Origin: an uncultured Chloroflexia bacterium
GTDB lineage: Bacteria > Chloroflexota > Limnocylindria > Limnocylindrales > CSP1-4
Assembly (NCBI GenBank): GCA_963850035.1
Contig: CAWKJP010000005.1
Location: 195,644-259,643, forward strand
Direction: 5' to 3'
Length of the DNA stretch: 64,000 bases
Positions 3,710 to 34,804 of the stretch are shown one piece after another. The position numbers and the translations under genes were made by a program. How positions within the stretch are numbered: the stretch's first letter is position 1; the number at the start of each line of letters is the position of its first letter. The notes beneath the pieces were generated by a model that was not told the DNA's origin, did not search any database, and worked only from the letters and a program-made list of their open reading frames with translations.

Positions 3710-4369
3710 ATGGCAATCGATCGGCCGATCAGCACTCGGTCACGGGCTCGCGCGTCCGGCGCGACCCTGGCCGTCGCGGTCATCCTGGGAGCGCTGATCG
3801 CCGGGTGCGGCGGCACGTCCTCCCCGGCCGGTGGCGGAGGCGGCGGAGGAGGAGGCGGGGCGAGCAGCGGCGCCGCCGGCGCGGGTGCGACCGTCACGAA
3901 TGCATGCGCGCTGCTGACCGCCGCCGACATCCAGAACGTCGTCGGTCATGCTGTCGCCACCTCGAGCCCGTTCCAGAACCAGCCGGACCAGCCCGGCTGC
4001 GAGTGGAGCTGGGACTCGGGTATCGGGTCGAACGACGTCAGCCTGACTGTCGTCAGCCCCGGCGGGCGGTCGGACTTTGACTCGACACGGCAGTTCGACC
4101 TCAAGTTCGCCGGCGGTCTCTCCGCGCTCGGGTCGGCCGCCGCGAGCGAGGCCGCGCCGCTCAGCTCCGACCTGGCCCAGAACCTGGGCGACGTGTTCAA
4201 GGTCGGCGACGTGGCAGGGCTCGGCGATGCCGCGTTCATGGGGCCCGGCACCACGATCTACGCCGTCAAGGGCGACACGGAGATCCAGATCCAGATCCTC
4301 GACGTGATCGACGACGGGATCCCCGCCAAGACGATCCAGCTCGCGAAGATCGTCCTCGGCCACCTGTAG
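3710..4369 (+). CDS. secreted lipoprotein (DUF3558-like)
   Basis: Signal peptide and lipobox (MAIDRPISTRSRARASGATLAVAVILGALIAGCGG), followed by a Gly/Ser-rich linker. An internal ATG at 3710 sits inside the longer ORF 3251..4369. Confidence 0.6.
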   Translation: MAIDRPISTRSRARASGATLAVAVILGALIAGCGGTSSPAGGGGGGGGGGASSGAAGAGATVTNACALLTAADIQNVVGHAVATSSPFQNQPDQPGCEWSWDSGIGSNDVSLTVVSPGGRSDFDSTRQFDLKFAGGLSALGSAAASEAAPLSSDLAQNLGDVFKVGDVAGLGDAAFMGPGTTIYAVKGDTEIQIQILDVIDDGIPAKTIQLAKIVLGHL

Positions 4370-12256: not shown

Positions 12257-12275
12257 ATGACGTTCTGTCATGACA
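12257..12275. promoter_or_regulatory. conserved palindromic motif, site 1 (ATGACG-ttc-TGTCATGACA)
   Basis: Read directly at these coordinates. The same composite palindrome recurs at 26146, 31595, 36886 and 47310. It contains a TTGACA-like hexamer (ATGACA), and CAGATT lies 17 nt downstream. Confidence 0.35.
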
Positions 12276-12335
12276 GGACACCCTCGCGCGCTCAGATTGC
12301 GCTCCAAGGGCGACCGGCAACGTCGCTCGTACTGC

Positions 12336-14018
12336 GTGCGCCCTCCCTGGGCGCCACGCAGCGGACTCGGGGTGAGGATTGAACGGCCAGGCCTGGACGT
12401 GGTGAAGCGACCCGCGGTCGCGATCCGCGACGAGTCCTCCGTGCGATTCCGGGGGTTGCTGGAGGCGGCCCCGGACGCCATGGTCGTGGTGGACCAGGAT
12501 GGGATGATCGCCCTGCTCAATCTGCAGGCGGAGAAGCAGTTCGGTTACCGACGTGATGAGCTGGTCGGCCAGCCCGTCACGAACATTATCCCGGTCGGGT
12601 TCGCCGAACAACTGATCGCGGACGACCTGCGCTCGGCCGCCGAAGCCCTGGCCCAGCAGATCGGCACCGGCATCGAGCTCGCCGGGCGGCGCAGGGACGG
12701 CAGCGAGTTCCCCATCGAGATCATGCTGAGCCCCCTCGAGAGCGCCGAGGGGATCCTCGTCATCGCGGCCATCCGCAACATCAGCGTGCGCAAGGAAGCC
12801 GAACACCAGCTGCTCCAGGCCCAGAAGCTCGAGTCGATCGGCAGGCTGGCCGGAGGGATCGCCCACGACTTCAACAACATGCTCTTCGTGATCAACGGGC
12901 ACGCCGAGATGCTCGACCAGGACCTGGTGCCGGCGCGACGGGCAGCGCTCGATCTCGACGAGGCGCTTCGCAACGTCCGGGCGATCCGGGAGGCTGGCGA
13001 GCGGGCCGCGACGCTGACGTCGCAGCTCCTCGCTTTCAGCCGCCAGCAGGTCATCCGTCCGACCGTGCTGGACCTCAACGCCGCCATCGAGGCCCTCGAG
13101 CCGATGATCCGCAATCTCATCGGCGAGAACATGCGGCTCGTCGCGAAGCCGGGTCGGGACGTCGGTCACATCCTCGCGGATGCGGGCCAGATCGACCAGA
13201 TCCTCGTCAACCTCGCCGTCAACGCCCGCGACGCGATGCCGGACGGCGGAACAGTGACGATCGAGACGGGGGACGTCCTCGTCGACGAGCCGTACGCGGT
13301 CGAGCGCTTTGGCCTTCGGCGAGGGCTGTACGTCCAGCTCGTGGTCAGCGACACCGGGATCGGGATGGACCATGCGACGAGGGAGCGCATCTTCGAACCC
13401 TTCTTCACGACGAAGCAGCTCGGAAAGGGCACCGGTCTCGGGCTCGCAACGGCCTATGGGATCGTCCACCAGGCCGGCGGCCACATCTGGGTGTACTCGG
13501 AGCCCGGCGTGGGTTCGGCGTTCAAGCTGTACTTTCCGCGGGTCGAGTCTCCCGTGTCGTCCGTGCCGCCGGACATCTCCGTCGCACCCGCGTCCGGAAC
13601 CGGCACGATCCTCGTGGTCGAGGATGAGCCCGTCGTGCGCGACATGACCACGCGGATGCTGATCCGGGCCGGGTATCACGTGATCCCGGTCGCTGACGGC
13701 GCCGACGCCATCGCGCAGCTCGCCCGGCTCGACGAGCCGATCGACGTGCTCGTCACCGACGTCATCATGCCGAACATGTCGGGCATTGAGCTCGCAGGCC
13801 TGGTGATGGATCGGGACCCGGCCGTGGGCGTCGTGATGCTCTCGGGGTATACCGCCGAAACCCTCAACCTCGAGCGCGTCACGACGCGCGGGGCGCTGTT
13901 CGTGCCGAAGCCCGTCACTTCTGGCCAGCTCGTGCTCGCGGTTCAGCGCGCCCGTGCCGTTCGAGGGGAAGCCAAGGGGCGCGACCAATCAGAGCCACGT
14001 GCGCGGTCGGGCTCGTGA
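12336..14018 (+). CDS. hybrid sensor histidine kinase (PAS - HisKA - HATPase - C-terminal receiver)
   Basis: It has a PAS domain (...MVVVDQDGMIALLN...), an H-box (LAGGIAHDFNNML), an ATPase G-boxes (DTGIGMD, GTGLGLA) and a receiver (ILVVEDEP...VLVTDVIMPNMSG). The start is uncertain. The ORF opens at ATG 12270, which lies inside the palindromic motif, and in-frame GTGs occur at 12336, 12372 and 12399. The stop overlaps the next gene's start (ATGA). Confidence 0.8.
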   Translation: MRPPWAPRSGLGVRIERPGLDVVKRPAVAIRDESSVRFRGLLEAAPDAMVVVDQDGMIALLNLQAEKQFGYRRDELVGQPVTNIIPVGFAEQLIADDLRSAAEALAQQIGTGIELAGRRRDGSEFPIEIMLSPLESAEGILVIAAIRNISVRKEAEHQLLQAQKLESIGRLAGGIAHDFNNMLFVINGHAEMLDQDLVPARRAALDLDEALRNVRAIREAGERAATLTSQLLAFSRQQVIRPTVLDLNAAIEALEPMIRNLIGENMRLVAKPGRDVGHILADAGQIDQILVNLAVNARDAMPDGGTVTIETGDVLVDEPYAVERFGLRRGLYVQLVVSDTGIGMDHATRERIFEPFFTTKQLGKGTGLGLATAYGIVHQAGGHIWVYSEPGVGSAFKLYFPRVESPVSSVPPDISVAPASGTGTILVVEDEPVVRDMTTRMLIRAGYHVIPVADGADAIAQLARLDEPIDVLVTDVIMPNMSGIELAGLVMDRDPAVGVVMLSGYTAETLNLERVTTRGALFVPKPVTSGQLVLAVQRARAVRGEAKGRDQSEPRARSGS

Positions 14019-16438
14019 TCGAAGAGCGGACCAACCCGAGCGCTCCGATCCTCGTCGTCGACGACGACGCGGCGACACGCGACCTGGTCGCGACACATCT
14101 TCGACGCGAAGGGTTCGAGACGCGCGAGGCGTCGGGCGGCGAGGCGGCGCTGCAGCTCATCGCGGACGAGGCGATCAGCCTGGTGATCCTCGACATGCGG
14201 ATGCCGGGCATGTCGGGAACCGATGTCGTCCGCGCCCTTCGGGAGGGTTCCATCACCTCCACCCTGCCGATCATGGTCCTGACCGGGAACACGGACGAGT
14301 ACTCCCTGGCCGCGAGCCTCGGCGTCGGTGCCGACGACTACCTGACGAAGCCCATCCCGCTCGACGAGCTCACGGCGCGGGTTCGCGCCCACCTGCGCGG
14401 CGCGCGGGTCGCGGCAGCGCAGGCGAAGCGAGGGAGCGAGGAGCAATATCGCGCGCTCGTGGAGCAGTCCGCAGATGGCATCCTCGTGTCGGACCCGACC
14501 GGACGCTACGTCGAGGCCAATGCGGCCGTCTGCCGGATGCTCGGCTACCAGCGCGACGAGCTCCTTGCCATGTCCTCGCCGGGCCTGAGCGCCGACGACG
14601 ATCCGCTGAGCCCAGAGGAGATGGACAAGCGGCTGGCGGAGACTCAGGCGGGGACGCCCATCATCGTCGAGCGGCGCTACCGTCGGAAGGATGGGACGAG
14701 CATGCCCGCCGAGGTCAGCTTCTCCCAGCTGCCCGACGGTCGCCTCCAGCGCAACATCCGCGACATCACGGCGCGCCTTGCCGCCGACGCGGAGCGCACC
14801 CGGCTCGCCTCGGCGGTCCAGCAGACTGCCGATGCGATCTGGATGAACGACATGAACGGCATCATCACGTACGTGAACCCGGCGTTCACCCACGCGTACG
14901 GGTACGAACGCTCCGAGATCGTCGGTCTGTACGGGTCGATCCTTGATGGCGGCCACCAGGACCAGGCGTTCTTCGCCACGATCTGGGAATCGGTGCGTGC
15001 GGGGCGGACGTGGTCCGGCACGATCGTCAACCGGCGCAAGGACGGCACGCCAATCGAAGTCGAATCGGTGATCTCGGCGATTCACGAGGCCGATGGCCGG
15101 TTCGCGGGCTATGTGCAGGCCGACCGGGACGTCACGCATGAGCGACGGCTCGAACGCGCCCTCGAGCGCGACGCCCGCGAGCGCGAGACGGTCGAGGCGT
15201 CGCTCGCGCAGATCGACCCGGATGCCTCGGCCGAGGAGATCGCGGCGGCCGCGTGCGCGGTCATCAACGAGCTTCCCGGCGTCGACTCCACGGTGGCGGC
15301 CCTCCTGGACGAGGGCATGGGAGCGGTCCTCGCCGTCGCCGGGCAGCTGGCCCTCGTCCTCACTCCCGCGATGATGCTACCGGCGCCGAGGGTCGCGTAT
15401 CTGCGCGAGCGGGCCTCGCGCGGCCCGTGGTTCGAGGCCTGGAATCCAGGCCCGGACGGCGGGGCGTGGGCGGAGCAGGCCACGACGACCGGACTCCAGG
15501 CGATTGCGTACGCGCCGCTGCGCAGCCAGCGTGGCGTGATCGGCGTCGTCGGCATCGGGAGCCACGACCCGGCGACCGCCTCGTCGCTCGTCGACCACAT
15601 GCCGGCCCTGGCGGCGTTCGCGTCCATTCTCGGGGCGCTGCTCGTGCCCAAGCTCGATGACCGTCGACGCGAGGGGGATCAGCGCGCACGAATCCAGGCC
15701 GTCATCGCGGACGCCGCGTTCACGCCGTACTTCCAGCCGATCGTCGACCTCCATAGCGGCGCCGTCGTCGGGTACGAGGCGCTCACCCGCTTCACGGATG
15801 GCGTGCCGCCCGATGCCCGGTTCGGCGCGGCGGTCCTGGCCGGCCTTGGCATCGACCTCGAGCTCGCCACGCTCCGCGCGGCGATCACGGCCGCGTCCGC
15901 CGTCCTGCCCCCCGTCGCATACCTGAGCCTCAACGCATCGCCCGGACTCATCACGTCGGGCGCGCTTCGCACCCTCCTCGGCGGCGTGGAGCGGCCGGTC
16001 ATCCTCGAGATCACCGAGCACGTCGCGATCACGGACTACGCCGCGCTCCGGGCCGAGCTGGCTGCCCTGGGGCCGACCGTCCGCCTGGCCGTGGACGACG
16101 CCGGCGCCGGCTACGCGAGCTTCCGGCACATCCTGGAGCTCGCCCCCGACGTCGTGAAGCTTGACATCGGGCTCATCCGCGGGATCGACGGCGACCCCGG
16201 CCGACAGGCGCTCCTCGCCGGAATGGCCTTCTTCGCGGTCAAGCGCAGGATCCGCCTTGTTGCCGAGGGGATCGAGACCGGCGCCGAGCTCGAGGTGCTC
16301 CGCTCCCTCGCGATCCCCTTCGGACAGGGCTACCTCCTGGGCCGGCCCCAGGACGGACGCGGGCCGGGGCCCTGGCCCGTCGCGGTCGTGCTCGAGTCGA
16401 CGCCGAAGAAGACCCGAAGGTCTCGCCGGTCACGCTGA
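14015..16438 (+). CDS. response-regulator receiver - PAS - PAS - GAF-like - EAL protein (c-di-GMP phosphodiesterase)
   Basis: 807 aa. It has a REC domain (ILVVDDDAATRDL...LVILDMRMPGMSG), two PAS domains and an EAL domain with catalytic signatures (YEALTRF, EITEH, DDAGAGYAS, KLD, EGIETG, QGY). Confidence 0.85.
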   Translation: MIEERTNPSAPILVVDDDAATRDLVATHLRREGFETREASGGEAALQLIADEAISLVILDMRMPGMSGTDVVRALREGSITSTLPIMVLTGNTDEYSLAASLGVGADDYLTKPIPLDELTARVRAHLRGARVAAAQAKRGSEEQYRALVEQSADGILVSDPTGRYVEANAAVCRMLGYQRDELLAMSSPGLSADDDPLSPEEMDKRLAETQAGTPIIVERRYRRKDGTSMPAEVSFSQLPDGRLQRNIRDITARLAADAERTRLASAVQQTADAIWMNDMNGIITYVNPAFTHAYGYERSEIVGLYGSILDGGHQDQAFFATIWESVRAGRTWSGTIVNRRKDGTPIEVESVISAIHEADGRFAGYVQADRDVTHERRLERALERDARERETVEASLAQIDPDASAEEIAAAACAVINELPGVDSTVAALLDEGMGAVLAVAGQLALVLTPAMMLPAPRVAYLRERASRGPWFEAWNPGPDGGAWAEQATTTGLQAIAYAPLRSQRGVIGVVGIGSHDPATASSLVDHMPALAAFASILGALLVPKLDDRRREGDQRARIQAVIADAAFTPYFQPIVDLHSGAVVGYEALTRFTDGVPPDARFGAAVLAGLGIDLELATLRAAITAASAVLPPVAYLSLNASPGLITSGALRTLLGGVERPVILEITEHVAITDYAALRAELAALGPTVRLAVDDAGAGYASFRHILELAPDVVKLDIGLIRGIDGDPGRQALLAGMAFFAVKRRIRLVAEGIETGAELEVLRSLAIPFGQGYLLGRPQDGRGPGPWPVAVVLESTPKKTRRSRRSR

Positions 16439-23033: not shown

Positions 23034-24746
23034 TCATGAACCCGGCGCCCGCCCGCGCACGCCCGGAGGGCTGCGTACGGGTGCCACGATGCCGGGATCG
23101 GGGCCCGTCTCGCGCTGGTCCATGGCGTGGCGGTCGGTTGCGCGCATGACGTGCTTCGCCTGGTACATGTGCCGGTCCGCCTCGCTGATGAGCTCGTCGA
23201 GCGTCCGCGGACGATCCGGGTCGAATAGGGCGACCCCGGCGCTGAGCGAGATCGCAAACGCGCGGTCCGGGGCCTCGTTGGCTCGCTGGACCACGTCGCC
23301 GATCCGCTGCACGAGCCTGACCCCGTCCGTGGGCGTGACCTCAGTCGCCAGGATCGCGAACTCGTCGCCGCCGAATCGGGCGACGAGGTCGGCCTCCCGG
23401 AACGTCCGGGTCCGCAGCAGATCGGCTGCCTCGCGGAGCGCCTGGTCCCCGGCCTCGTGGCCGAGGCGATCGTTGATCTCCTTGAGGCCGTCGAGGTCCG
23501 CGAAGACGAGCCAGAGCCGGTTCCGCGTTCGGATCGACGTGCGGAGCTGCTGCTCGGCGAGCGTCGTGAAGCCCCGCCGGTTCAGGAGCCCGGTCAACCC
23601 ATCGGTCAGCGACAGCATGCGGATGGTCTCGACCATCTGGCGCCGCTCGGTCACCTCGCGCAGCACCACGAGCATCCCGGCATGGCCCCGGCGCTCGTCC
23701 TCGAGCGCGCTGCGCCGCACGTTGAACCACCGAGCCGCCGGGGGAGGCCCATCCGCCGGCGCGGGGCCCTGGGGCTCGGGTCGCACGGGTTCGATGGGGA
23801 TCTCCACCTCGCCTTCCCCGGCCGCCTGGCACGCCACGACGAGCGCAGGGAACCTGTGGAGGACGTCGTCGATCGCCTGCCCCACGGCATCCCGACCGAT
23901 CCCGAGGAGTCTCGTCGCCGACAGGTTGAACGCCGCGATCCGCCGCTCCGGATCCAGCACGAGCACGGCATCCGCGAGCGAGTCGACGAGCGTCGGCCAG
24001 GCGACCGGCATGACCTCGAGCAGCCGGGCCCGGAGGACGGCCCACGCGCCGATGAGCCCGGCGACCGCGAACGCGATCGAGCTCAGGTCGGCGTGCACCT
24101 CCGACTCGAGCCCGGCCACGTAGACGACGCTGACGACCACCGGCACGAGCGACCCGACGATGACGATCCGCATCCGAGCCGAGTAGACCCGGGGATATCG
24201 GTAGATGGCGGCCACGAGCGCCAGGAGCCCGACCCCGATGAGGATGTAGGCATACGCAGCCACCACCCAGAACCACGGGCCATGCTCGTAGACGGCGGTG
24301 ACGCCCCAGGCGTCGATGAGCGTGACCTTCGTCCAGAGGAGGTGGTGCCACTCGTTCGTCGCCGCCACGCCCACCGAGATGCTCGGCACGAGCAGCAGGA
24401 GCGCGACCCGGCCACGAGTGAGCCATGCGTCCTGGCGCGTCCATGCCAGCACGAAGAGCAGGTAGAGAACCGGTGCGCTCTCGATGCCGGCATAGGCGAC
24501 GACGGACCAGGCGATCTTCATCGTCCGATCGACGGCCGACGCTTCGAGCGCGTTCGCGAGCAGCCACCAGCCGACGGCAAGCATCAGGAGCGCGAGGCCG
24601 CCGGCGCCGACGAGGTGGCGTCGCCGCCACGCCGCAAGCGCCACCCCGACCGCGACCGCGGCAGAAGCCAGGTACGACAGGACGAGGAGGTTCAGCTGCA
24701 ACGAGCCCTCCGGGGCGAGGAGCGGGATACCGTTGCATTGCGGCAT
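23034..24746 (-). CDS. membrane sensor (about 7 TM) - PAS - GGDEF diguanylate cyclase
   Basis: 570 aa with an N-terminal polytopic domain, a PAS domain and a GGDEF domain carrying an intact active site (RFGGDEFAIL). Confidence 0.85.
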   Translation of the reverse strand: MPQCNGIPLLAPEGSLQLNLLVLSYLASAAVAVGVALAAWRRRHLVGAGGLALLMLAVGWWLLANALEASAVDRTMKIAWSVVAYAGIESAPVLYLLFVLAWTRQDAWLTRGRVALLLLVPSISVGVAATNEWHHLLWTKVTLIDAWGVTAVYEHGPWFWVVAAYAYILIGVGLLALVAAIYRYPRVYSARMRIVIVGSLVPVVVSVVYVAGLESEVHADLSSIAFAVAGLIGAWAVLRARLLEVMPVAWPTLVDSLADAVLVLDPERRIAAFNLSATRLLGIGRDAVGQAIDDVLHRFPALVVACQAAGEGEVEIPIEPVRPEPQGPAPADGPPPAARWFNVRRSALEDERRGHAGMLVVLREVTERRQMVETIRMLSLTDGLTGLLNRRGFTTLAEQQLRTSIRTRNRLWLVFADLDGLKEINDRLGHEAGDQALREAADLLRTRTFREADLVARFGGDEFAILATEVTPTDGVRLVQRIGDVVQRANEAPDRAFAISLSAGVALFDPDRPRTLDELISEADRHMYQAKHVMRATDRHAMDQRETGPDPGIVAPVRSPPGVRGRAPGS

Positions 24747-24858
24747 CCCATCCTAACCGCCCGACACCCGCCCTCGGACCCGTCCGGCGCCGCCTGCGCC
24801 CGGTGCGGCCCCGGCCCCGATCCCGGCCGGGACCCGGCGGAGCCGGGCGCCCATCGGA

Positions 24859-26363: not shown

Positions 26364-29300
26364 ATGGTGACGCCGGCCGACCGTGCCCCGACCGGCACTG
26401 GGGGCGATGACACGCCCCATCAGGCCGCCGTGGGAGAAGACAGGGCCGCGCGGGCGCTCGAATGGCCCGCGCTCCTGGCTGCCCTCATCGCCATCGGCAT
26501 CGGGCTCGTGGTGCTCCTCGGGTGGGCGACGGGCCCCGGTATCCTCCGCACGTTTCTGCCTGGCGCGCCTCCCATGAAGGTGGGGGCGGCCATCCTGTTC
26601 CTGCTGCTCGGCGTGGCCCTGACCCTGCGAGTGGCAGGTCGGAATCCTCGCGTCGCAGACGCCCTCGCGATCGTCGTGGCCGTCGTCGCGCTTGCCACCC
26701 TGCTCGAATACGCCGCCGGCATCGATCTCGGCTTCGATCGGCTCTTTGTGGCGGACGTGATCGGGCCCGGCGCACCATTCCCTGGGCGCATGGCCGTGAG
26801 CACAGCGGTCGGGCTCGTCGCTGGTAGCCTCACGGTCGTCCTGCTCGGGCGTAGCTGGCTCGGCTGGCGCGTGCGGACGATCCTCGCGGTCGTCGTCGGA
26901 CTGATCGGCGGACTGGGGGTCCTCGGCTACCTGTACGACGCGACCGCGCTCGTCGCCCTCGGGTCGGCGAGTCAGATCGCGCCCCCGACTGCGCTCGGCT
27001 TCGTTATCTTCGCGGCCGGCCTTGTTGCCGCCGATCAGGAGCACGGGCTCATGCCGGTGATCCGCGATCGGGGACTCGCGGGCCAGCTGACGCGTCGGAT
27101 CACGCTGACCATCGCCGTGGTGCTGCCCCTCGCCGGCTGGCTGGACGTGCGGCTCGTTGGCGCCGGCCTGGTGGGCGACGGGCTCGCGATGGCCGCGATC
27201 GTCGGCTTCGAGGTCCTCGTGCTCGGGATCGCCGGAATCTGGACCTCGGGCGGCGTCCTCCGGCTCGAGCGCGCGCGCACGGTCGCCGAGGGTGAGCGCG
27301 ACCAGCAGCTGGAGGTCTCCGAGCGCCTCGTCTTTGCCATCGACAGGTCGACTGACGGGATCGTCATCACCGACCCCGACCGGCGCATCGTCTATGCCAA
27401 CACGGCCCTCGGCAGGACCATGGGCCGTGAACCGGCGGAGCTCGTCGGGATGCCTGTCACACAGGTCACGGCCACCGCCGTGGGCGCCGCCGTCGACGCG
27501 GCCGGCGATGGGGAATGGTCCGGCGAGATCGATCGCCTGGGGCCGGACGGGACGCCGCTTCGCCTCGAGGTGAGGATCACGCCGATCCGTGGTCCGCAGG
27601 GTGAGGTCTCGGCCTGGCTCGGCATGAACCGGGACATCACGGCCGCGCACCAGGCCCGCATGGCCCTCGAGTCATCGGAGCGGCACTTGCGCACCGCGCT
27701 CGACACGATGCTCGACGGCGTCACCATCCAGACGGCAGTTCGCGACGGGACGGGCAGGATCGTCGACTTCCGGGTCGACTACGCCAACTCCGCGATCGGC
27801 CTGATCAGCGGCACGGCGGCCAGCCTCCAGGCGGGGCGCACCCTGCTCGATCTGTTCCCCGCCCACCGGACGAACGGGCTCTTCGATGCGTATGTCCGGG
27901 TGGTCGAGACCGGCGTCGCGTTCCAATCCGAGGCGTTCCACTACGTCGACCCCGACGCGGAGGCCGGACCGCTCGACCAGGTGCTCGACCTGCGGGCCGC
28001 CAGGATCGGCGACGGCTACGTCCTCTCGGTCCGCGACGTGACCGGGCACCGCAAGGCCGAGCAGGTGCTCGTGGAGCAGCGGGCTCTTCTCGCCGCGCTG
28101 ATGGACAACACCCCGGACCACATCTACTTCAAGGACGCCGAGAGCCGCTTCACGATGATCAGCAGGGCCCTGGCGACCTCGTTCGGCCTTGGCGAAGCGT
28201 CACAGGCGGTTGGCAAGGCCGATCTCGACTTCTTCACGGACGAACACGCCCGCATGGCGCTCGAGGACGAGCGCCAGATCATGCGCTCCGGCGTCCCACT
28301 CGTGGGTCTCGAGGAGCGGGAGACACGGCTCGACGGCCGCGAGACCTGGGTCTCGACCACCAAGCTGCCCCGCCGGGATCGCGACGGGTCGATCGTGGGT
28401 ACCTTCGGGATCTCGCGCGACATCACCACGCGCAAGCAGGCCGAGACGGCGCTCGCCGAGACGAACCGGCGCCTGGAGGAAGCCATCACCCGGGCCACGG
28501 AGATGACCCTGCGGGCGGAGACGGCCAACGCCGCCAAGAGCGAGTTCCTGGCCAACATGAGCCACGAGATCCGGACGCCGATGAACGGGGTCATCGGGAT
28601 GATCGGGCTCCTGCTGGACACGGAGCTCGAGGCGGACCAGCGACACTACGCCGAGACCGTCCGGGCGAGCGGCGAAGCCCTCCTCGACCTCCTGAACGAC
28701 ATCCTCGACTTCTCGAAGATCGAGGCCGGTCAGGTCGAGCTGGAGACGCTCGACTTCGACCTGCGCACCCTCCTGGACGACTTCGCGGTCATGCCGGCCA
28801 TGCGCGCCCACGAGAAGGGGCTGGAGTTCATCTGCGCCACGGCTCCGGACGTACCCGCCCGTCTTGCCGGCGATCCGGGACGACTCCGCCAGGTGCTCCT
28901 CAACCTGACAGGCAACGCCATGAAGTTCACGCACCAGGGCGAGGTCTCGGTGCGGGCAGGCCTCCTGGCCGAGACCGGGGCCGACGTCGTCATCCGCTTC
29001 TCGGTCAAGGACACCGGGATCGGGATCGCACCCGAGAAGCAGGCGCGAATGTTCGAGAAGTTCACCCAGGCGGACGCGTCGACCACCCGTCGATACGGTG
29101 GCACGGGTCTTGGCCTCGCCATCTCCAAGCGGCTCGTGGAGCTGATGGGCGGGGAGATTGGCATCGCGAGCGAGGAGGGTCGCGGGTCGGAGTTCTGGTT
29201 CACGGTGCGCCTCGCGAAGCAGGCCGAATCGGACCGCCCGGCGATCCCGGTGGCGGAGCTGCGCGGCGCCCACATCCTCGTGGTGGACGACAACGCCACG

Positions 29301-30251
29301 AATCGCGAGGTCCTGTCTGCCCAGCTCCGTGCCTGGGACGCGCGCCCGCAGGAGGTGCCGGACGGCCCCTCGGCGCTCCTCGCGCTTGCACAGGCGCGGG
29401 ACGCGGGCGATCGCTTCGTCGCGGCGATCCTCGACATGCAGATGCCGGACATGGACGGGACGGACGTCGCCCGTGCCATCAAGGCCGACGAGACGCTGAA
29501 GGACACGCGCCTTGTGCTGCTGACCTCCCTCGGCAAGCGAGGCGATGCGCGGGAGATGGAGGAGATCGGCTTCTCCGCGTACCTGATGAAGCCTGCGCGA
29601 CAGTCGGACCTGTTCGACAGCCTTTCGGCCGTCCTGGCCGGCTCGGAGGTCAGTCGCCGCTCGCGACATATCGTCACCCGCCACGCGGTCCGGGAGATGC
29701 GCCGCGGCGCGGTCCGCATCCTGCTGGCCGAGGACAACCTCACCAACCAGCAGGTCGCGCTGGGAATCCTGCGAAAGCTGGGCCTGCGTGCGGACGCCGT
29801 CGGAGACGGCGCCGAGGCGGTCCGGGCGCTCGAGACGATCCCGTACGACCTCGTGCTCATGGACGTGCAGATGCCGGAGATGGACGGCCTGGAGGCCACC
29901 GCCAGGATCCGCGATCCGATGTCCGCGGTCCTGCACCACCACGTCCCGATCGTCGCGATGACCGCCCACGCCATGCAGGGTGACCGAGACCGCTGCCTGG
30001 AAGCCGGGATGGACGACTACGTCACCAAGCCCATCTCGCCCGACGCGCTGGCGGCGGCACTCGATCGGTGGCTGCCCCGGGAGGAGCCCGCCCCCACTGC
30101 CCATCCGGACGCGGCACGCCCGTCCGAGGTGCGCACCGCCGTGGTCGGTGCCGAGGCATCGAATGCCGGCCCGGACGCGACCGGGGCTGGATCCCGACTC
30201 GACGGCGCCCGTCTTCGACGCGGCGGGGATGATGGACCGGCTCATGGGTGA
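26364..30251 (+). CDS. multi-PAS hybrid sensor histidine kinase with two C-terminal receiver domains
   Basis: It has an N-terminal polytopic membrane domain, at least four PAS domains, an H-box ([17 protein letters not shown]), an ATPase ([18 protein letters not shown]) and two REC domains ([10 protein letters not shown]...[11 protein letters not shown]; [10 protein letters not shown]...[12 protein letters not shown]). The ORF opens at 26202. I placed the start at ATG 26364 ([11 protein letters not shown]), which has GAAGG about 10 nt upstream. An ATG at 26262 is also possible. Confidence 0.85.
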
Positions 30252-30570
30252 CCAGGAGCTCGCCGGGATCATCGTGCATGGCTTCCTGGAGGACTTGCCG
30301 CGATTGATCGAGGCGCTCAGGAACTCCCTCGCCGTCGGTGACGCGCCGGGCGCGATCCGCGGGGCCCACACCATCCGCGGCGCGTCGGCCACCGTCGGCG
30401 GGGAGGCGCTGCGCGCGGTGGCGTGGGAGATGGAGAAGGCGGCCACCGCAGGCGAATTCGGCGCCGTGAGCGCCCGTCTCCCGGAGCTCGAGCTCGAGCT
30501 CGGCCGACTCCGCGAGGCGATGGGCGCCTTCATCGACGCACTCCCGCGTGTCGCGGAAGCCCCGGCATGA
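30226..30570 (+). CDS. Hpt (histidine phosphotransfer) domain, either a standalone ~114-aa protein or the frameshifted C-terminus of the hybrid kinase
   Basis: It carries the Hpt signature (GAHTIRGASATVGGEALRAVAWEME). An ATG at 30226 overlaps the kinase stop at 30249-30251. Conserved Hpt-like residues (PVFDAAGMM) extend upstream in this frame, which suggests an original fusion. Confidence 0.5.
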   Translation, partial: GMMDRLMGDQELAGIIVHGFLEDLPRLIEALRNSLAVGDAPGAIRGAHTIRGASATVGGEALRAVAWEMEKAATAGEFGAVSARLPELELELGRLREAMGAFIDALPRVAEAPA

Positions 30571-30574
30571 CCCC

Positions 30575-31498
30575 ATGAGGATCCTCATCGCGGACGACGA
30601 CCTCACCTCGCGCCTGGTCCTCGCGGGCGTGCTGAAGAAGTGGGGCCACGAGGTGGTGGCCACGGTGGACGGCGGGCAGGCATGGGAGGCGATGCAGCGC
30701 CCGGACGCGCCCGCGGTCGCGATCCTCGACTGGATGATGCCCGAGCTCTCCGGGGTGGAGGTGTGCGGCCGGGTCCGGGGCCTTCACTCCGACCAGCCGC
30801 CCTACCTCATCCTCCTGACCGCGAAGGGTGAGAAGTCCGACATCGTCGCGGGACTGGAGGCGGGCGCGGACGACTACCTGTCCAAGCCGTTCGACCCGGG
30901 AGAGCTGCGTGCGCGCGTCGACGTGGGCCGGCGAATCATCGAGCTGCAGGCGCGCCTGCTTGAGACGCGCAACGCGCTCGAGCACGAAGCGACGCACGAT
31001 CCGCTCACCGGCGCGATCAACCGGCGCGCGTTCTCGGATGTCCTGGCTCGCGCCCTCTCGGAGGAACGGCGGCATCACGACGGGCTGGCCCTCGGGATCT
31101 GCGACGTCGACAGCTTCAAGACGATCAACGACACGCACGGGCACCAGGTCGGGGACGAAGTGCTCGTCGAGCTCGTCCGTCGGATCACGGGCAAGCTGCG
31201 CGGACACGACGTCCTGAGCCGCCACGGCGGCGACGAGTTCGTGGTGCTCGTGGGGCATGTCGGGGAGACGGACGTGGTCACGCTCTTCGAGCGCATGCGG
31301 GCCGCGGTCGAGGAACATCCGATCCCCACGAAGGTCGGGGACGTGTCCGTCACGCTGAGCTTCGGCGTCAGCAGATGGACGGAAGGCCAGACCGAGGACG
31401 CGCTCGTCGCTGCCGCCGACGTTGCCCTGTACCGGGCCAAGAGCGCGGGACGCAATCGCGTTGCCCTTGCTGGCGACCCGGCGGCGTCCGCCACGTAG
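30575..31498 (+). CDS. response regulator REC-GGDEF (PleD-like diguanylate cyclase)
   Basis: It starts 4 nt after the Hpt stop. It has a REC domain (MRILIADDDLTSRLVL...ILDWMMPELSG) and a GGDEF domain with an intact active site (RHGGDEFVVLV). Confidence 0.85.
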   Translation: MRILIADDDLTSRLVLAGVLKKWGHEVVATVDGGQAWEAMQRPDAPAVAILDWMMPELSGVEVCGRVRGLHSDQPPYLILLTAKGEKSDIVAGLEAGADDYLSKPFDPGELRARVDVGRRIIELQARLLETRNALEHEATHDPLTGAINRRAFSDVLARALSEERRHHDGLALGICDVDSFKTINDTHGHQVGDEVLVELVRRITGKLRGHDVLSRHGGDEFVVLVGHVGETDVVTLFERMRAAVEEHPIPTKVGDVSVTLSFGVSRWTEGQTEDALVAAADVALYRAKSAGRNRVALAGDPAASAT

Positions 31499-31594
31499 GA
31501 GCTGCGGACCCGAGCGCGGGTCGCCGGGCTCATCTCGGCGCCGCCGCTCGATCCCGGCCACCCGCGACCCGCGTCGAGCGGTGGCAGCACGCTC

Positions 31595-31614
31595 GTGACG
31601 ATCCGTCATGACAC
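31595..31614. promoter_or_regulatory. conserved palindromic motif, site 3 (GTGACG-atc-CGTCATGACAC)
   Basis: Read directly. ATGACA is followed 16 nt later by TAGGTT (31630-31635), a plausible -35/-10 pair. Confidence 0.35.
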
Positions 31615-34600
31615 GCGCGCTCGGTCTGTTAGGTTCAACCATGGATTGGCCTGCCCGTCCTGCTATCGCCGCCCGCCCGGGTGGCCATCGCGAGTGGCTC
31701 CTCCAGGGTGTCGCATGCGTGAGAATCGGGGCAAGGCGGGCAGAGCTGCCGCCTCCCCATCCGTCGGCCTCCGACGAGACGGCGCCCGCGACAGCTCCCC
31801 TGGCCGGGCGGGAGCGCCTGCGCCTGGCGCCCGTTCGACGGGAGCACCGCCCAGGGCGCGCCGGTCGCGCGAGCGGGCGGAGGCCGAGCTTCGCGAGAGC
31901 GACATCCGATATCGATCGGTGCTCGCCGCGCTCGAGGAAGGGGTCGTGCTCCACGGCCCGGACGGCGCAATCACCGAGCACAACGCGGCCGCCGGAACCA
32001 TTCTCGGCCTCGCGAGCGACGAGCTGATCGGCCGAATGCCGGCGGATTCGCGGTGGCAGGCGATCCACGAGGATGGATCGCCGTTTGCAGGCGACACGCA
32101 CCCGGCGGTGCGCACCCTGGCCACCGGCGAGCCATGCTCCGGCGTCGTCATGGGGATCCGGAAGCCTGACGGCTCGCTCACCTGGATCCAGGTCAACTCG
32201 CGGCCCATCCTCCAGGAAGGCGAGACGCACCCATCCGCCGTGGTCGTCTCGTTCTTCGACATCACCGAGCGCGAGGAGCGCTCCCGCCAGCGGGATCACC
32301 TCCAATCTGCGATCGAGGAGTCGTTCGATGGGATGGTCATCATCGGCCGCGATCTGCGGATCGTCTATGCCAACGCGACGGCCGCGCAGGGCGTGGGACA
32401 CGTCGCTGCCGACCTCGTGGGACGACCCATCACGGAGGTCGCGGGAGCCGTCCTGGATCCAGCCCAGGTCGCCGAAATGATGGAAACGGTCCTGGACGAG
32501 AGGCAATGGACCGGGGAGGTCGATCGTCAAGGACCGGAAGGGACGCCGCGTCGCGTCGAGGTCAGGATCACCCCGACCCGCGACGAACGCGGCACGATCT
32601 CGTCGTGGATCGGGGTGATCCGCGATGTCACGGCGGAGCATCGGGGCCGGGCGGCGCTCGAGTCGTCAGAGCATCGCCTTCGGATCGCGCTCGACACGAT
32701 GCTCGACGGCGTCGCGATCCAGTCGGCCGTGCGCGACGACACGGGACGGATCGTCGATTTTCGGGTCGACTATGTGAACGCAGCGATCGGCGTGGTCAGC
32801 CGAATGGCGGGCATTCCCCGGGTCGGACATAGCCTGCTCGAGCTGCTCCCCGCTCATCGGACCAATGGACTCTTCCAGAGCTACGTCGCCATGGTGGAGA
32901 CCGGTGTCCCATTCTTCGCAGACGGCTTCCACTACGTGGATCCCGACGCGGCGGGCGGACCCCTCGATCAGATCGTCGACCTGCGCGCTGCCAGGATGGG
33001 CGAGGGCTACGTGCTGTCGGTGCGCGATATCAGCGGGCGGCACCGGGCCGAGCGCGAGATGCGGCGCCTGTCGAGGGCAATCGAGCAGTCGGCAGAGTCG
33101 GTCATGATCACGGACGCGACCGGTGCGATCGAGTACGTGAACCCCGCGTTCGAGCAGGTCAGCGGATACACGCGCGACGAGGTCCTCGGCCGGAACCCGC
33201 GGCTCCTCAAGAGCGGCGTCCAGGATTCCGCCTTCTACGCCGCGATGTGGGACGCCCTCACGAGCGGGCAGACATTCGTGGCAGACATGACGAACCGGCG
33301 CAAGAACGGGGAGATCTACCAGGAGGAGAGCGTCGTCTCGCCGATCCTCGACGAGACCGGGACGATCACGAGCTACGTGGCGGTGAAGCGTGACGTCACC
33401 CGCGAACGCGCCTCGGAGGACGTCCGCGAGAGCCTCGCCCGGGAGCGTGCCCTCATTGCGACGGCCCTCTCCGGGCTGCACGTCCTGCCGACCCCGGCCG
33501 CGACGGCCGCGGCGATCTGCCGGCAGATCGTGGGCCTGGCCGGCGTCGCGAGCGCTTCCCTCGCCTACTTCACCCTCGAGGGTCCGGCTCTCGCGCTTGC
33601 CTTCGTGCGGGCCGACGGCGTGCCCGTGCGACTGCGGCGGCTGCCATTCCAGCGCAGCAGGGTCCTGCGCGAACGGGCCGAGGAGGGTCCGTGGGTGGAG
33701 ACCTGGGTCCACCGGCCCTGGCACCCGTACGACCGGCTCCACACCGACCTGGGCACCGCGGCCCTCGCCTACGCGCCGGTCCGCAGCGGCGGCACGCTCA
33801 TCGGCCTCCTGACAGTCACCTCGGATAGTGACGACGCGATCGAGCGGCTCACCGAGACCCTGCCGGGCCTGCTCGAGTTCGCTGGCTTCGCGGGCGCGCT
33901 CGTCGGCCGGGCGGTGGCCGACCTGACCGAGCTTGGCGCCACCCGCGAACGGATCGCGCAGATCATCAAGAGCGCGGCCTTCCGGCCGGTCTTCCAGCCG
34001 GTTGTCGAGCTCGCGACCGGCGCCAGGGTCGGCTACGAGGCCCTCACCCGCTTTGCCGACGGGACGGCCCCCGACCTCGTCTTCGCCGACGCGCGTGCCG
34101 CCGGGCTCGAGGCGGAGCTCGAGCTCGCCACCCTTGCGGGCGCGATCGCAGCGGCCACGGGGCTGCCGGGCGGTGCCTGGCTCAGCCTCAACGCGTCGCC
34201 CAACCTCGTGGGCGCGAGCTCGCGCCTCGCGGGATTGGTGCGCAGGGCAGACCGGCCGATCGTGCTCGAGGTGACCGAGCATGTGGCTGTCGCGGACTAC
34301 GCGGCCCTGCGCGCCGCGCTCGGCAGACTCCGCCCCAAGGTACGGGTCGCCATCGACGACGCGGGCTCGGGGATCGCCAACTTCAGCCACATCGTCGAGC
34401 TGCGGCCGGCCTTCGTGAAGCTCGACATCGGGCTCGTCCGCGGGATCGACACGGACCTGACCCGACAGGCCCTCATGGTGGGCCTGCTCCATTTCGCGAG
34501 CGAGTCATCCAGCCTGACGATCGCCGAGGGCGTCGAGACCCCGGAGGAGCTCGCGATGCTGCAGGCGCTCCACGTGCCGCTCGCCCAGGGCTACCTGCTG

Positions 34601-34804
34601 GGCCGCCCCGCGCCCGTCGCCGAGTGGGCGGAGACGCGGGGCATCACCGGGCCGGGACACGTGCCGCGGAACGGCAGGGGCGCGAGGCGCGCGACGGGCG
34701 CGCCTGCGCGGGTCGCCGCAACAACCGGACGCCAGGAGATCGCGAGCCCACGAGCCGGTGATACCACCGATCGCGGGGGCGACGATCCGAACGCCGCGGG
34801 TTGA
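31595..34804 (+). CDS. multi-PAS - GAF-like - EAL c-di-GMP phosphodiesterase
   Basis: At least four PAS domains are followed by an EAL domain (YEALTRF, EVTEH, DDAGSGIANFSH, KLD, EGVETP, QGY). The true start is uncertain. The first ~100 codons are Arg/Pro-rich low-complexity sequence that overlaps the motif, and the first PAS domain begins near 31900. Confidence 0.8.
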   Translation: MTIRHDTRARSVRFNHGLACPSCYRRPPGWPSRVAPPGCRMRENRGKAGRAAASPSVGLRRDGARDSSPGRAGAPAPGARSTGAPPRARRSRERAEAELRESDIRYRSVLAALEEGVVLHGPDGAITEHNAAAGTILGLASDELIGRMPADSRWQAIHEDGSPFAGDTHPAVRTLATGEPCSGVVMGIRKPDGSLTWIQVNSRPILQEGETHPSAVVVSFFDITEREERSRQRDHLQSAIEESFDGMVIIGRDLRIVYANATAAQGVGHVAADLVGRPITEVAGAVLDPAQVAEMMETVLDERQWTGEVDRQGPEGTPRRVEVRITPTRDERGTISSWIGVIRDVTAEHRGRAALESSEHRLRIALDTMLDGVAIQSAVRDDTGRIVDFRVDYVNAAIGVVSRMAGIPRVGHSLLELLPAHRTNGLFQSYVAMVETGVPFFADGFHYVDPDAAGGPLDQIVDLRAARMGEGYVLSVRDISGRHRAEREMRRLSRAIEQSAESVMITDATGAIEYVNPAFEQVSGYTRDEVLGRNPRLLKSGVQDSAFYAAMWDALTSGQTFVADMTNRRKNGEIYQEESVVSPILDETGTITSYVAVKRDVTRERASEDVRESLARERALIATALSGLHVLPTPAATAAAICRQIVGLAGVASASLAYFTLEGPALALAFVRADGVPVRLRRLPFQRSRVLRERAEEGPWVETWVHRPWHPYDRLHTDLGTAALAYAPVRSGGTLIGLLTVTSDSDDAIERLTETLPGLLEFAGFAGALVGRAVADLTELGATRERIAQIIKSAAFRPVFQPVVELATGARVGYEALTRFADGTAPDLVFADARAAGLEAELELATLAGAIAAATGLPGGAWLSLNASPNLVGASSRLAGLVRRADRPIVLEVTEHVAVADYAALRAALGRLRPKVRVAIDDAGSGIANFSHIVELRPAFVKLDIGLVRGIDTDLTRQALMVGLLHFASESSSLTIAEGVETPEELAMLQALHVPLAQGYLLGRPAPVAEWAETRGITGPGHVPRNGRGARRATGAPARVAATTGRQEIASPRAGDTTDRGGDDPNAAG

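What the first reader, a model, noticed from the sequence alone, without database searches (positions are those of the whole stretch)
27330..33058. Tandem PAS-PAS sensory cassette duplicated between the hybrid histidine kinase and the EAL phosphodiesterase (about 70% aa identity over ~245 aa)
Kinase residues spanning roughly 27330-28065 and EAL-protein residues spanning roughly 32330-33058 align almost colinearly over about 245 aa. Examples:
- [38 protein letters not shown]...[71 protein letters not shown] (kinase) versus [38 protein letters not shown]...[72 protein letters not shown] (EAL protein).
- The preceding PAS domain also matches: [50 protein letters not shown] versus RQWTGEVDRQGPEGTPRRVEVRITPTRDERGTISSWIGVIRDVTAEHRGR.

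A kinase that ultimately drives a cyclase and a phosphodiesterase appear to read the same ligand or signal through a shared, recently duplicated sensor module.
Basis: seen in the sequence. Interest (0 to 1): 0.6.

Follow-up and report, generated by a model that had tools for sequence, protein, structure and literature searches.

The report
Old shared PAS sensor, not recent duplication
A histidine kinase and a neighbouring c-di-GMP phosphodiesterase do share a strongly conserved PAS sensor domain. It is an old building block reused by many signalling proteins of soil Chloroflexota, not a recent copy made between these two genes.

Summary
The colinear similarity is real (BLASTP E=3e-86) but weaker than stated. 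Identity is 61% of aligned residues over the claimed span: 68% for the second PAS domain (PAS-B, no gaps) and 44-51% for the first (PAS-A, with indels).

It is not a recent duplication.
- The kinase's PAS-B is 81-87% identical to PAS-B of ten orthologous kinases from other Chloroflexota genomes and metagenome contigs, but only 68% to the neighbouring EAL protein's.
- The EAL copy is equally distant (66-69%) from all eleven kinases.
- Silent-site divergence is higher between the two window copies (dS 0.67) than between kinase orthologues (0.40-0.49).
- The longest identical nucleotide run is 28 bases.

PAS-B is the fixed first element of two conserved output modules: PAS-B/PAS-C/kinase/REC/REC/HPt and PAS-B/flavin-type PAS/GAF/EAL. 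Variable domains are shuffled in upstream of it. Only the window's kinase carries an 8-helix membrane domain plus PAS-A.

The relay from kinase to cyclase is supported: an HPt domain was found, out of frame, and all catalytic motifs are intact. That both arms read the same cue through PAS-B is plausible but untested. This is an ordinary case of domain shuffling, with a well-conserved, uncharacterised PAS subfamily.

The parts
26364..30251 (+). Hybrid sensor histidine kinase. The ORF is open from GTG 26202; ATG 26364 is the likely start. Domain order: 8 TM helices, PAS-A, PAS-B, PAS-C, HisKA, HATPase, REC, REC.
   Evidence: H-box SHEIRTP, G2 box and both REC Asp residues are present.
26469..27239 (+). 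N-terminal membrane domain with eight hydrophobic segments. It matches no Pfam family.
   Evidence: Hydropathy scan. No Pfam hit even at E<=1. It is 43-58% identical to the N-termini of other kinases and EAL proteins (L004, L005, L037, L038, P0066, P0088). It is absent from the ten orthologous kinases.
27294..27659 (+). Kinase PAS-A.
   Evidence: Pfam PAS_4/PAS/PAS_9. 44-51% identical to the EAL protein's PAS-A. Carries a 6-10 residue deletion in the helical region at 27462-27512.
27660..28064 (+). Kinase PAS-B, the strongly conserved shared domain.
   Evidence: 68% identical to the EAL copy and 81-87% to ten orthologous kinases. Weak Pfam PAS_4 hit, 27.9 bits. AF2 pLDDT 96.3.
28065..28451 (+). 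Kinase PAS-C, not shared with the EAL protein.
   Evidence: Pfam PAS_4. Weak match to the BvgS PAS domain. 70-80% identical in kinase orthologues.
28533..29216 (+). HisKA and HATPase_c catalytic core.
   Evidence: Pfam. Motifs.
29232..30086 (+). Two receiver (REC) domains.
   Evidence: Pfam. Acceptor Asp in DMQMP and DVQMP.
30211..30570 (+). HPt phosphotransfer domain in a reading frame shifted relative to the kinase. It is either a sequencing or real frameshift of a fused HPt, or a separate small gene starting at ATG 30229.
   Evidence: Pfam PF01627, E=2.5e-14. Motif AHTIRGASATVGG. HPt is fused in frame in five of five orthologues.
30575..31498 (+). REC-GGDEF response regulator, a diguanylate cyclase.
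   Evidence: Pfam. GGDEF motif, RxxD I-site and acceptor Asp present. 71-83% identical to genes in the same position in L002, L004, L030, L032 and L034.
31715..34804 (+). EAL phosphodiesterase. The ORF is open from 31499; ATG 31715 is the likely start. Domain order: PAS0, PAS-A, PAS-B, PAS-C, GAF-like, EAL.
31880..32266 (+). EAL-protein PAS0.
   Evidence: Its closest relatives (59-66%) are the PAS domains that sit directly upstream of PAS-B in six kinase orthologues.
32267..32650 (+). EAL-protein PAS-A.
32651..33055 (+). EAL-protein PAS-B.
   Evidence: 68% identical to the kinase copy and 57-69% to every other family member.
33056..33424 (+). EAL-protein PAS-C, of the flavin-binding type (NifL/MmoS/LOV-like, with no LOV cysteine).
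   Evidence: phmmer against PDB: MmoS 3ewk E=2.3e-35, NifL 2gj3 E=2.3e-17. NCBIfam nifL match.
33425..34609 (+). GAF-like domain (33425-33919) and EAL domain (33950-34609).
   Evidence: Pfam. EAL catalytic set present: EALTR, N, EVTE, DDAGSG, KLD, EGVE, QG.

Best explanation
The similarity reflects old paralogy plus domain shuffling, not a recent local duplication.

PAS-B is a lineage-specific PAS_4-like domain under strong purifying selection. In soil and peat Chloroflexota (MAGs labelled Chloroflexia or Candidatus Limnocylindrales) it is the fixed first element of two conserved output modules:
- PAS-B / PAS-C / HisKA / HATPase / REC / REC / HPt
- PAS-B / flavin-type PAS-C / GAF / EAL

Different input domains have repeatedly been fused upstream of PAS-B: PAS-A, PAS0, an 8-helix membrane domain, REC, and TM-GAF-GGDEF. 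In the window's lineage the kinase lost the cytoplasmic PAS array of its orthologues and gained the membrane domain plus a PAS-A of the kind normally found in the EAL family. That is why two consecutive domains now align.

Inferred mechanism: PAS-B responds to one unknown intracellular cue in both proteins.
- In the kinase it gates autophosphorylation. The phosphoryl group then passes His, Asp (REC), His (HPt), Asp (REC-GGDEF) and switches on c-di-GMP synthesis.
- In the EAL protein it gates c-di-GMP hydrolysis, integrated with a flavin-type redox PAS and a GAF domain.

The locus would then be a synthesis/degradation pair with one shared input and several private inputs.
For: Shown:
- Homology is real: E=3e-86, PAS-B 68% identical.
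- The kinase PAS-B clusters with ten orthologous kinases at 81-87% aa and about 84% nt identity, bootstrap 79 and 69.
- The EAL PAS-B is 66-69% identical to all eleven kinases alike.
- dS is 0.67 for the in-window pair against 0.40-0.49 between kinase orthologues. dN/dS is about 0.3.
- The longest identical run is 28 nt.
- PAS-B at 55% identity or more occurs in 34 cluster representatives and about 35 loci, with many architectures. The broader family has 5445 representatives at E<=1e-3, often in tandem arrays.
- Five kinase orthologues read in full are cytoplasmic, and none of the ten loci holds the TM domain upstream of its kinase or a PAS-A of 40% identity or more.
- PAS-A of the kinase is no closer in raw identity to the window's EAL PAS-A (45%) than to PAS-A of other organisms (42-48%).
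- HPt is present and all catalytic motifs are intact.
- The order kinase-HPt-REC-GGDEF is conserved. A PAS-B EAL gene lies downstream of the kinase operon in L004 as well.

Inferred: that PAS-B binds a ligand, and that it is the same ligand in both proteins.
Against: - The trees are neighbour-joining on 135 residues, with moderate support (69-79). The branching among the EAL-type PAS-B copies is unresolved.
- The window's EAL PAS-B is closer to the kinase clade (66-69%) than to PAS-B of the other EAL proteins (57-65%). An old conversion from a kinase-type copy therefore cannot be excluded.
- In the PAS-A tree the two window copies pair with bootstrap 76. This allows an old local copy of PAS-A.
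- No ligand, cofactor or activity was tested.
- The differences between the two PAS-B copies cluster in the C-alpha/D-alpha loop, a region that flanks the pocket in solved PAS sensors (the pocket location is my own knowledge of PAS structures).
- The HPt is out of frame in the window, so the relay may be impaired if the frameshift is real and HPt is not translated separately.
Confidence: 0.75

Rival explanations
1. One reading: a PAS-A/PAS-B cassette was recently duplicated, or homogenised by gene conversion, between the two neighbouring genes.
For: The two domains align colinearly in adjacent same-strand genes, E=3e-86. The two PAS-A copies pair with bootstrap 76.
Against: The kinase PAS-B is 81-87% identical to orthologues in ten other genomes or contigs, against 68% to the neighbour. 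dS is higher between the paralogues than between orthologues. Third-position identity is 59-60%, against about 70% for orthologues and 39% by chance. The longest identical run is 28 nt. The kinase orthologues have no PAS-A.
Confidence: 0.03
2. An old local exchange of modules took place between the two neighbouring genes. The shared PAS-B sequence (about 75% nucleotide identity) would have served as the anchor for recombination. The kinase received PAS-A from the EAL gene, and the EAL gene received PAS0 from the kinase. This is compatible with the best explanation for PAS-B.
For: PAS0 of the EAL protein is closest (59-66%) to the PAS domain directly upstream of PAS-B in six kinase orthologues. 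The PAS-A copies of kinase and EAL protein pair with bootstrap 76, and join the nearest EAL relative L040 with bootstrap 40. The C-terminal half of PAS-A is 56% identical between the two, against 50-52% to the next best.
Against: Raw PAS-A identity (45%) is no higher than to PAS-A of unrelated proteins such as P0059 (48%). Both branches are long, so long-branch attraction is possible. PAS0 and PAS-A also occur next to PAS-B in other proteins (P0076, P0110, P0066, P0059), so other paralogues in the unseen part of the genome could be the donors. No breakpoint is visible inside PAS-B.
Confidence: 0.3
3. PAS-B is not a ligand sensor. It would be a conserved dimerisation or signal-transmission module, or a docking surface that lets the kinase and the phosphodiesterase form a complex. 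The two proteins would then share a structural part rather than a signal.
For: PAS-B always sits inside the array, directly upstream of the output module, in many architectures. Its G-H loop (YVDPDAxGGPLDQ) and beta-sheet are almost invariant, as expected for an interaction surface. The predicted N-cap and C-terminal helices are long, as in coiled-coil-linked PAS dimers. DgcO and PdeO of E. coli form a complex (PMC8846402).
Against: Conservation also covers the E-alpha/F-alpha helices ([14 protein letters not shown]), which line the pocket in solved PAS sensors (my own knowledge). The nearest solved fold, the Rv1364c PAS domain, binds fatty acids (PMC4159695).
Confidence: 0.25

Closest known systems
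E. coli dgcO-pdeO (dosC-dosP) operon
   Same: A cyclase arm and a phosphodiesterase arm are encoded side by side and respond to one cue. In E. coli the cue is O2, sensed by both proteins (PMC8846402).
   Different: In E. coli the two sensors have unrelated folds (globin and heme-PAS) and the cyclase senses directly. Here the shared element is a homologous PAS domain, the cyclase arm is indirect (hybrid kinase, HPt, REC-GGDEF), the cue is unknown, and co-transcription and complex formation are untested.
Unorthodox or hybrid histidine kinases with HPt (ArcB/BarA/TorS type) feeding a PleD/WspR-type REC-GGDEF cyclase
   Same: The order HisKA-HATPase-REC-(REC)-HPt followed by a REC-GGDEF gene. All phospho-acceptor residues, the GGDEF motif and the RxxD I-site are present.
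   Different: No NCBIfam equivalog cut-off is reached. There are two REC domains. HPt is out of frame in the window. The sensor array (8 TM, PAS-A, PAS-B, PAS-C) is lineage specific.
Pfam PAS_4 (PF08448); nearest solved fold is the N-terminal PAS domain of M. tuberculosis Rv1364c (PDB 3k3c)
   Same: Canonical PAS fold with N-cap and C-terminal helices. Foldseek TM 0.71, probability 1.0. Distant PAS-B relatives are fused to SpoIIE/PP2C phosphatases (P0028, P0031); that Rv1364c also carries such a phosphatase domain is my own recollection.
   Different: Only 18% identity. Neither the single sequence nor the profile detects any solved structure. The Pfam hit is marginal (27.9 and 18.2 bits against a cut-off of 23.1). 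Fatty-acid binding by Rv1364c (PMC4159695) is a lead, not a test.
NifL PAS1 and MmoS PAS-A, flavin (FAD) redox-sensing PAS domains
   Same: The EAL protein's PAS-C matches them by sequence: MmoS E=2.3e-35 for the whole chain (two stretches, best stretch 1e-17), NifL E=2.3e-17.
   Different: This concerns a domain that is not shared with the kinase. Flavin binding was not tested. The LOV cysteine is absent (GRNPRLLKSG).

Membership tests
PAS fold (Pfam PAS_4, PF08448) | Profile HMM match at or above the gathering score | tested here: inconclusive
   Kinase PAS-B scores 27.9 bits, above the 23.1 cut-off. EAL PAS-B scores 18.2 bits, below it. Both PAS-A copies pass clearly (58 and 62 bits).
PAS fold (Pfam PAS_4, PF08448) | Five-stranded antiparallel beta-sheet flanked by helices | tested here: met
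   AF2 models with pLDDT 94.7 and 96.3 show the order A-beta, B-beta, helices, G-, H-, I-beta. Foldseek probability is 1.0 to many solved PAS and LOV domains.
Recent segmental duplication or gene conversion | Paralogues within one genome are closer to each other than to orthologues in other genomes | tested here: not met
   68% within the window against 81-87% to ten orthologues. Kinase clade bootstrap 69-79.
Recent segmental duplication or gene conversion | Low synonymous divergence and long identical DNA tracts | tested here: not met
   dS 0.67, above the 0.40-0.49 between orthologues. Longest identical run is 28 nt. PAS-B nucleotide identity is 75%.
Hybrid histidine kinase phosphorelay with HPt | H-box His, ATP-binding boxes, receiver Asp, HPt His | tested here: met
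   Pfam HisKA, HATPase_c, two REC, Hpt. Motifs listed. Caveat: HPt is in another reading frame than the kinase.
Hybrid histidine kinase phosphorelay with HPt | Phosphotransfer to the neighbouring REC-GGDEF protein | not testable with these tools
   Only synteny supports it: kinase-HPt-REC-GGDEF in the window, L002, L004, L030, L032 and L034. The HPt stop lies 4 nt before the regulator's ATG.
Active GGDEF diguanylate cyclase (PleD/WspR type) | GG(D/E)EF active-site motif, RxxD I-site, receiver Asp | tested here: met
   RGHDVLSRHGGDEF, ADDD/LDWMMP and KPF are present. Pfam GGDEF E=1.2e-41. Enzyme activity was not tested.
Active EAL c-di-GMP phosphodiesterase | Conserved catalytic and metal-binding residues (EALxR, N, ExxE, DDxGxG, K, EGVE, QG) | tested here: met
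   All are present. Pfam EAL E=3.8e-40. Enzyme activity was not tested.
Co-operonic cyclase/phosphodiesterase pair reading one signal (DgcO-PdeO type) | Both proteins sense the same stimulus | not testable with these tools
   The only indication is a shared homologous PAS-B at 68% identity. The differences cluster in the C-alpha/D-alpha loop.
Co-operonic cyclase/phosphodiesterase pair reading one signal (DgcO-PdeO type) | Genes co-transcribed and proteins forming a complex | not tested
   The genes lie on the same strand with a gap of 96-216 nt, depending on which start is used. The adjacency recurs only loosely in L004, with two genes in between.

The most novel reading that the evidence does not exclude
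PAS-B is a dedicated receptor for one still unknown small molecule. The nearest solved fold, the Rv1364c PAS domain, binds fatty acids, so a lipid-like ligand is one lead. Under this reading PAS-B controls synthesis and degradation of c-di-GMP at the same time from one locus, giving a single-input push-pull switch. Its unusually conserved DNA would also serve as a recombination hinge through which these Chloroflexota repeatedly rewire input domains onto kinase or EAL outputs.
Probability: 0.2. Interest if true: 0.5.

Novelty: new member of a known kind. Interest (0 to 1): 0.25.

Why it matters
If the shared PAS-B reads one cue, the locus is a compact example of one signal setting both production and removal of c-di-GMP in a poorly studied soil phylum. 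PAS-B would also be a tractable, highly conserved sensor family with no solved structure and no known ligand.

As it stands, the finding mainly shows that high identity between neighbouring sensor domains can come from strong constraint on an old module rather than from recent duplication. It also documents extensive shuffling of input domains around a fixed PAS anchor. Both are ordinary for bacterial signalling proteins.

Tried and rejected
- A metagenome scan with the junction of the kinase's membrane domain and PAS-A found no relative. No second example of the window's exact kinase architecture was found.
- Exact look-ups of the REC-GGDEF protein with two alternative starts found nothing, and the window's own proteins are not in the protein database. 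The source organism is inferred only from relatives: Chloroflexota MAGs labelled Chloroflexia or Candidatus Limnocylindrales.
- PDB sequence searches with PAS-B, as a single sequence and as a profile, gave only chance-level hits.
- Foldseek on the two-domain model gave only generic tandem-PAS matches (NifL, MmoS, FixL, DosP) at 15-22% identity, which does not suggest a cofactor.
- I considered a heme ligand role for the conserved His in FPAHRTNG.
- I looked for a recombination breakpoint inside PAS-B. The kinase copy resembles its orthologues along its whole length.
- RR-GGDEF and the EAL ORF are in the same frame, separated by one stop codon. I judged this compatible with chance in 72% GC DNA.
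- Rfam and tRNA scans of the window were empty.
- A literature search for c-di-GMP in Limnocylindria found nothing relevant.

Full report
**The locus**

The window is 72% GC. The region of the finding holds four features on the + strand.

- **Hybrid histidine kinase**, 26202/26364-30251. Its domains are eight hydrophobic segments, then PAS-A (27294-27659), PAS-B (27660-28064), PAS-C (28065-28451), HisKA, HATPase and two REC domains.
- **HPt domain**, 30211-30570, in a reading frame shifted relative to the kinase.
- **REC-GGDEF response regulator**, 30575-31498.
- **EAL protein**, 31715-34804. Its domains are PAS0, PAS-A (32267-32650), PAS-B (32651-33055), PAS-C, a GAF-like domain and EAL.

**Checking the observation**

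BLASTP aligns kinase residues 365-621 with EAL-protein residues 225-487 colinearly, E=3e-86.

| Region | Identity |
|---|---|
| Claimed span | 142/232 aligned residues, 61% (55% counting gap columns) |
| PAS-B | 92/135, 68%, ungapped |
| PAS-A | 44% by BLAST, 51% of aligned residues, with a 4- and a 10-residue indel |
| Nucleotides | 72% overall, 75% for PAS-B |

Other PAS pairs in the window are 22-42% identical, and PAS-B has no third copy there.

**Age of the similarity**

- Third codon positions are 59-60% identical. Chance gives 39% at this GC3 of 86-88%, and kinase orthologues show about 70%.
- Nei-Gojobori dS is 0.67 for the in-window PAS-B pair and 0.40-0.49 between the window's kinase and its orthologues. 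dN/dS is about 0.3.
- The longest identical nucleotide run between the two copies is 28 bases.
- Scans of genomes and metagenomes gave ten orthologous kinases: L002-L004 and L030-L036.
- Their PAS-B is 81-87% identical to the window's kinase PAS-B. These eleven form a clade in neighbour-joining trees, with bootstrap 79 and 69.
- The window's EAL PAS-B lies outside that clade. It is 66-69% identical to every one of the eleven kinases and 57-65% to PAS-B of other EAL proteins.

The split between the two copies therefore predates the divergence of these genomes. There is no sign of recent duplication or gene conversion.

**What PAS-B is**

- Pfam sees it only marginally as PAS_4: 27.9 and 18.2 bits against a cut-off of 23.1.
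- No solved structure is detectable by sequence or profile.
- AF2 models are confident (pLDDT 94.7 for PAS-A plus PAS-B, 96.3 for PAS-B alone) and show a canonical PAS fold with long N-cap and C-terminal helices.
- Foldseek places the pair among tandem PAS sensors (NifL, MmoS, FixL, DosP) at 15-22% identity.
- PAS-B alone lies nearest the N-terminal PAS domain of M. tuberculosis Rv1364c (TM 0.71, 18% identity), followed by short LOV proteins. Rv1364c's PAS domain is reported to bind fatty acids (PMC4159695). This is only a lead.
- An exhaustive HMMER search found 5445 cluster representatives at E<=1e-3 and 2048 at E<=1e-10. Many carry several copies, up to nine matched stretches per protein in that search and up to eight copies per protein in a local re-scan.
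- The family signature is avRd..G.i.DFr....N...G..ll..fP.....glf..y..vveTG...gDG.v.t..D.t.

**A fixed anchor with shuffled inputs**

A close subgroup, at least 55% identical to the window's copies, occurs only in Chloroflexota-type sequences: 34 cluster representatives and about 35 loci. Its domain contexts are many.

| Context | Examples |
|---|---|
| PAS-B / PAS-C / HisKA... | kinase orthologues, P0043 |
| PAS-B directly before HisKA | P0003, P0013, P0041, P0052 |
| PAS-B / flavin-type PAS-C / GAF / EAL | L001, L006, L037-L041, L048-L054, P0068, P0088, P0091, P0141 |
| 8 TM / PAS / PAS-B / PAS-C / GAF / EAL | L037, L038 |
| TM / GAF / GGDEF / linker / PAS-B / PAS-C / GAF / EAL in one ORF | L039, L041 (L006, cut at the contig start, shows only GGDEF onwards) |
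| REC ... PAS-B ... EAL | P0091 |

PAS-B is thus the constant first element of two conserved output modules. The domains upstream of it vary.

**Is PAS-A plus PAS-B a unit?**

Not in the kinase family.

- The five kinase orthologues read in full (L002, L004, L030, L032, L034) are cytoplasmic proteins with the order PAS, PAS-C', optionally PAS0', then PAS-B, PAS-C, kinase core, REC, REC and HPt, all in one ORF.
- None of the ten orthologous loci holds the membrane domain upstream of its kinase (in L004 it sits in a separate gene) or a PAS-A of 40% identity or more.
- PAS-A followed by PAS-B is common in the EAL family and in other proteins: L001, L040, L051-L053, P0001, P0002, P0066, P0081.
- The kinase's PAS-A is 45% identical to the window's EAL PAS-A and 42-48% to PAS-A of other organisms.
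- It carries a 6-10 residue deletion in the helical region.
- In a neighbour-joining tree the two window PAS-A copies do pair (bootstrap 76), and they join the nearest EAL relative L040 with bootstrap 40.
- Conversely, PAS0 of the EAL protein is closest (59-66%) to the PAS domain that sits directly upstream of PAS-B in six kinase orthologues.

An old exchange of modules between the two gene families, possibly between these neighbours, is therefore possible. I give it about 0.3. Donors elsewhere in the unseen genome are just as likely.

The kinase's membrane domain has no Pfam match even at E<=1. It recurs at 43-58% identity on other kinases and EAL proteins.

**The signalling circuit**

- All catalytic and phospho-acceptor motifs are present: the H-box, both REC Asp residues, the HPt His, GGDEF with an RxxD I-site, and the full EAL residue set.
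- HPt is confirmed by Pfam (E=2.5e-14) and is fused in frame in five of five orthologues read.
- In the window the frame changes somewhere in the low-complexity linker. A GGGG run at 30183-30186 is one candidate for a one-base error. Alternatively, HPt could be translated from ATG 30229, which lies 23 nt inside the end of the kinase ORF.
- The HPt stop lies 4 nt before the ATG of the REC-GGDEF gene.
- The order kinase-HPt-REC-GGDEF is kept in L002, L004, L030, L032 and L034.
- A PAS-B EAL gene follows within 4.5 kb in L004, with two genes in between.

**Private inputs**

The EAL protein's PAS-C resembles the FAD-binding PAS domains of MmoS and NifL, with E=2.3e-35 for the whole MmoS chain and 2.3e-17 for NifL. 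It lacks the LOV cysteine. The kinase has its membrane domain and a different PAS-C. The two proteins would share at most one input among several.

Within PAS-B, the 43 differences cluster in the C-alpha/D-alpha loop (2/11 identical) and the C-terminal helix (3/9). The beta-sheet, the E/F helices and the G-H loop are nearly identical. The same ligand is plausible but not assured. A role as a dimerisation or docking module cannot be excluded.

**Comparison with known systems and verdict**

The nearest concept is the E. coli dgcO-pdeO (dosCP) operon, where a cyclase and a phosphodiesterase encoded together both sense O2 and form a complex (PMC8846402). Here the shared element is a homologous PAS domain and the cyclase arm runs through a phosphorelay. 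Large Pfam PAS families, including PAS_4, are known to overlap and to be poorly classified (PMC10468136), so an unrecognised subfamily is no surprise.

The finding is a real homology with an over-read interpretation. It is an ordinary case of domain shuffling around an old, strongly constrained PAS module. The modest points of interest are the uncharacterised PAS-B family and the possible shared-input synthesis/degradation pair.

Noticed in passing
window 30100-30251 and 30211-30570: The HPt domain that is fused in frame to the kinase in five orthologues is in a shifted frame here. A GGGG run at 30183-30186 is a candidate one-base error. Alternatively HPt is a separate gene starting at ATG 30229, overlapping the kinase's end by 23 nt.
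   Followed up: partly
window 26469-27239: The kinase's N-terminal domain has eight hydrophobic segments and no Pfam match even at E<=1. The same domain (43-58% identity) heads other kinases and EAL proteins (L004 15531-17261, L005, L037, L038, P0066, P0088). It looks like an undescribed membrane sensor domain.
   Followed up: partly
window 33056-33424: The EAL protein's PAS-C is of the NifL/MmoS/LOV flavin-binding type (MmoS E=2.3e-35). It has GRNPRLLKSG in place of the LOV cysteine motif, which suggests a redox input private to the phosphodiesterase.
   Followed up: partly
window 31880-32266: PAS0 of the EAL protein is most similar (59-66%) to the PAS domain that sits directly upstream of PAS-B in six orthologous kinases. 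This hints at exchange of modules between the two gene families.
   Followed up: partly
window 27462-27512: The kinase's PAS-A has a 6-10 residue deletion and an Ala/Gly/Val-rich stretch in the helical region. All other PAS-A copies have a conserved helix there. The AF2 confidence dips to 74 at this point.
   Followed up: no
window 12261-16438 and 23034-24752 (- strand): More c-di-GMP signalling genes lie nearby: a PAS-kinase-REC gene, then a REC-PAS-PAS-GAF-EAL gene whose second PAS is 41% identical to the focal EAL protein's PAS-C, and a HisKA_7TM-PAS-GGDEF gene on the other strand. The window is a signalling-rich region.
   Followed up: partly
L039 8069-11959, L041 3-3452, L006 2-2383: In these relatives a single ORF encodes TM-GAF-GGDEF, an Arg-rich linker, then PAS-B, PAS-C, GAF and EAL. 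The sensor domains therefore sit between the cyclase and phosphodiesterase domains of one protein, an unusual order.
   Followed up: partly
L037 3-3848, L038 3747-5501: An EAL protein with the same 8-TM domain and a PAS-B 78-80% identical to the window's kinase is colinear with the kinase's first 620 residues (53% identity over 543 aa). The window's kinase looks like a mosaic of this family and the kinase family.
   Followed up: partly
window 31496-31715: The REC-GGDEF gene and the EAL ORF are in the same reading frame, separated by a single TAG. The frame stays open from 31499. I judged this compatible with chance in 72% GC DNA.
   Followed up: partly
L003 about 12690 onward; L004 18841-18873: L003 switches from the kinase's second REC domain into an EF-G-like sequence, probably a chimeric assembly or a rearrangement. 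L004 changes frame inside its EAL gene, between a PAS-A-like domain and PAS-B. Both suggest assembly or homopolymer errors in these MAGs.
   Followed up: no
P0034-P0040 and similar; L012-L017: Distant PAS-B relatives (about 30-36% identity) form tandem arrays of up to eight or nine copies per protein, for example in Spirosoma and other Cytophagales.
   Followed up: no
L037 about 3350-3848, L054 about 1900-2753: Some EAL relatives end in a long repetitive tail rich in Ala, Glu, Arg and Asp (AAERDxIAxARDxA repeats) after the EAL domain. The window's protein lacks it.
   Followed up: no
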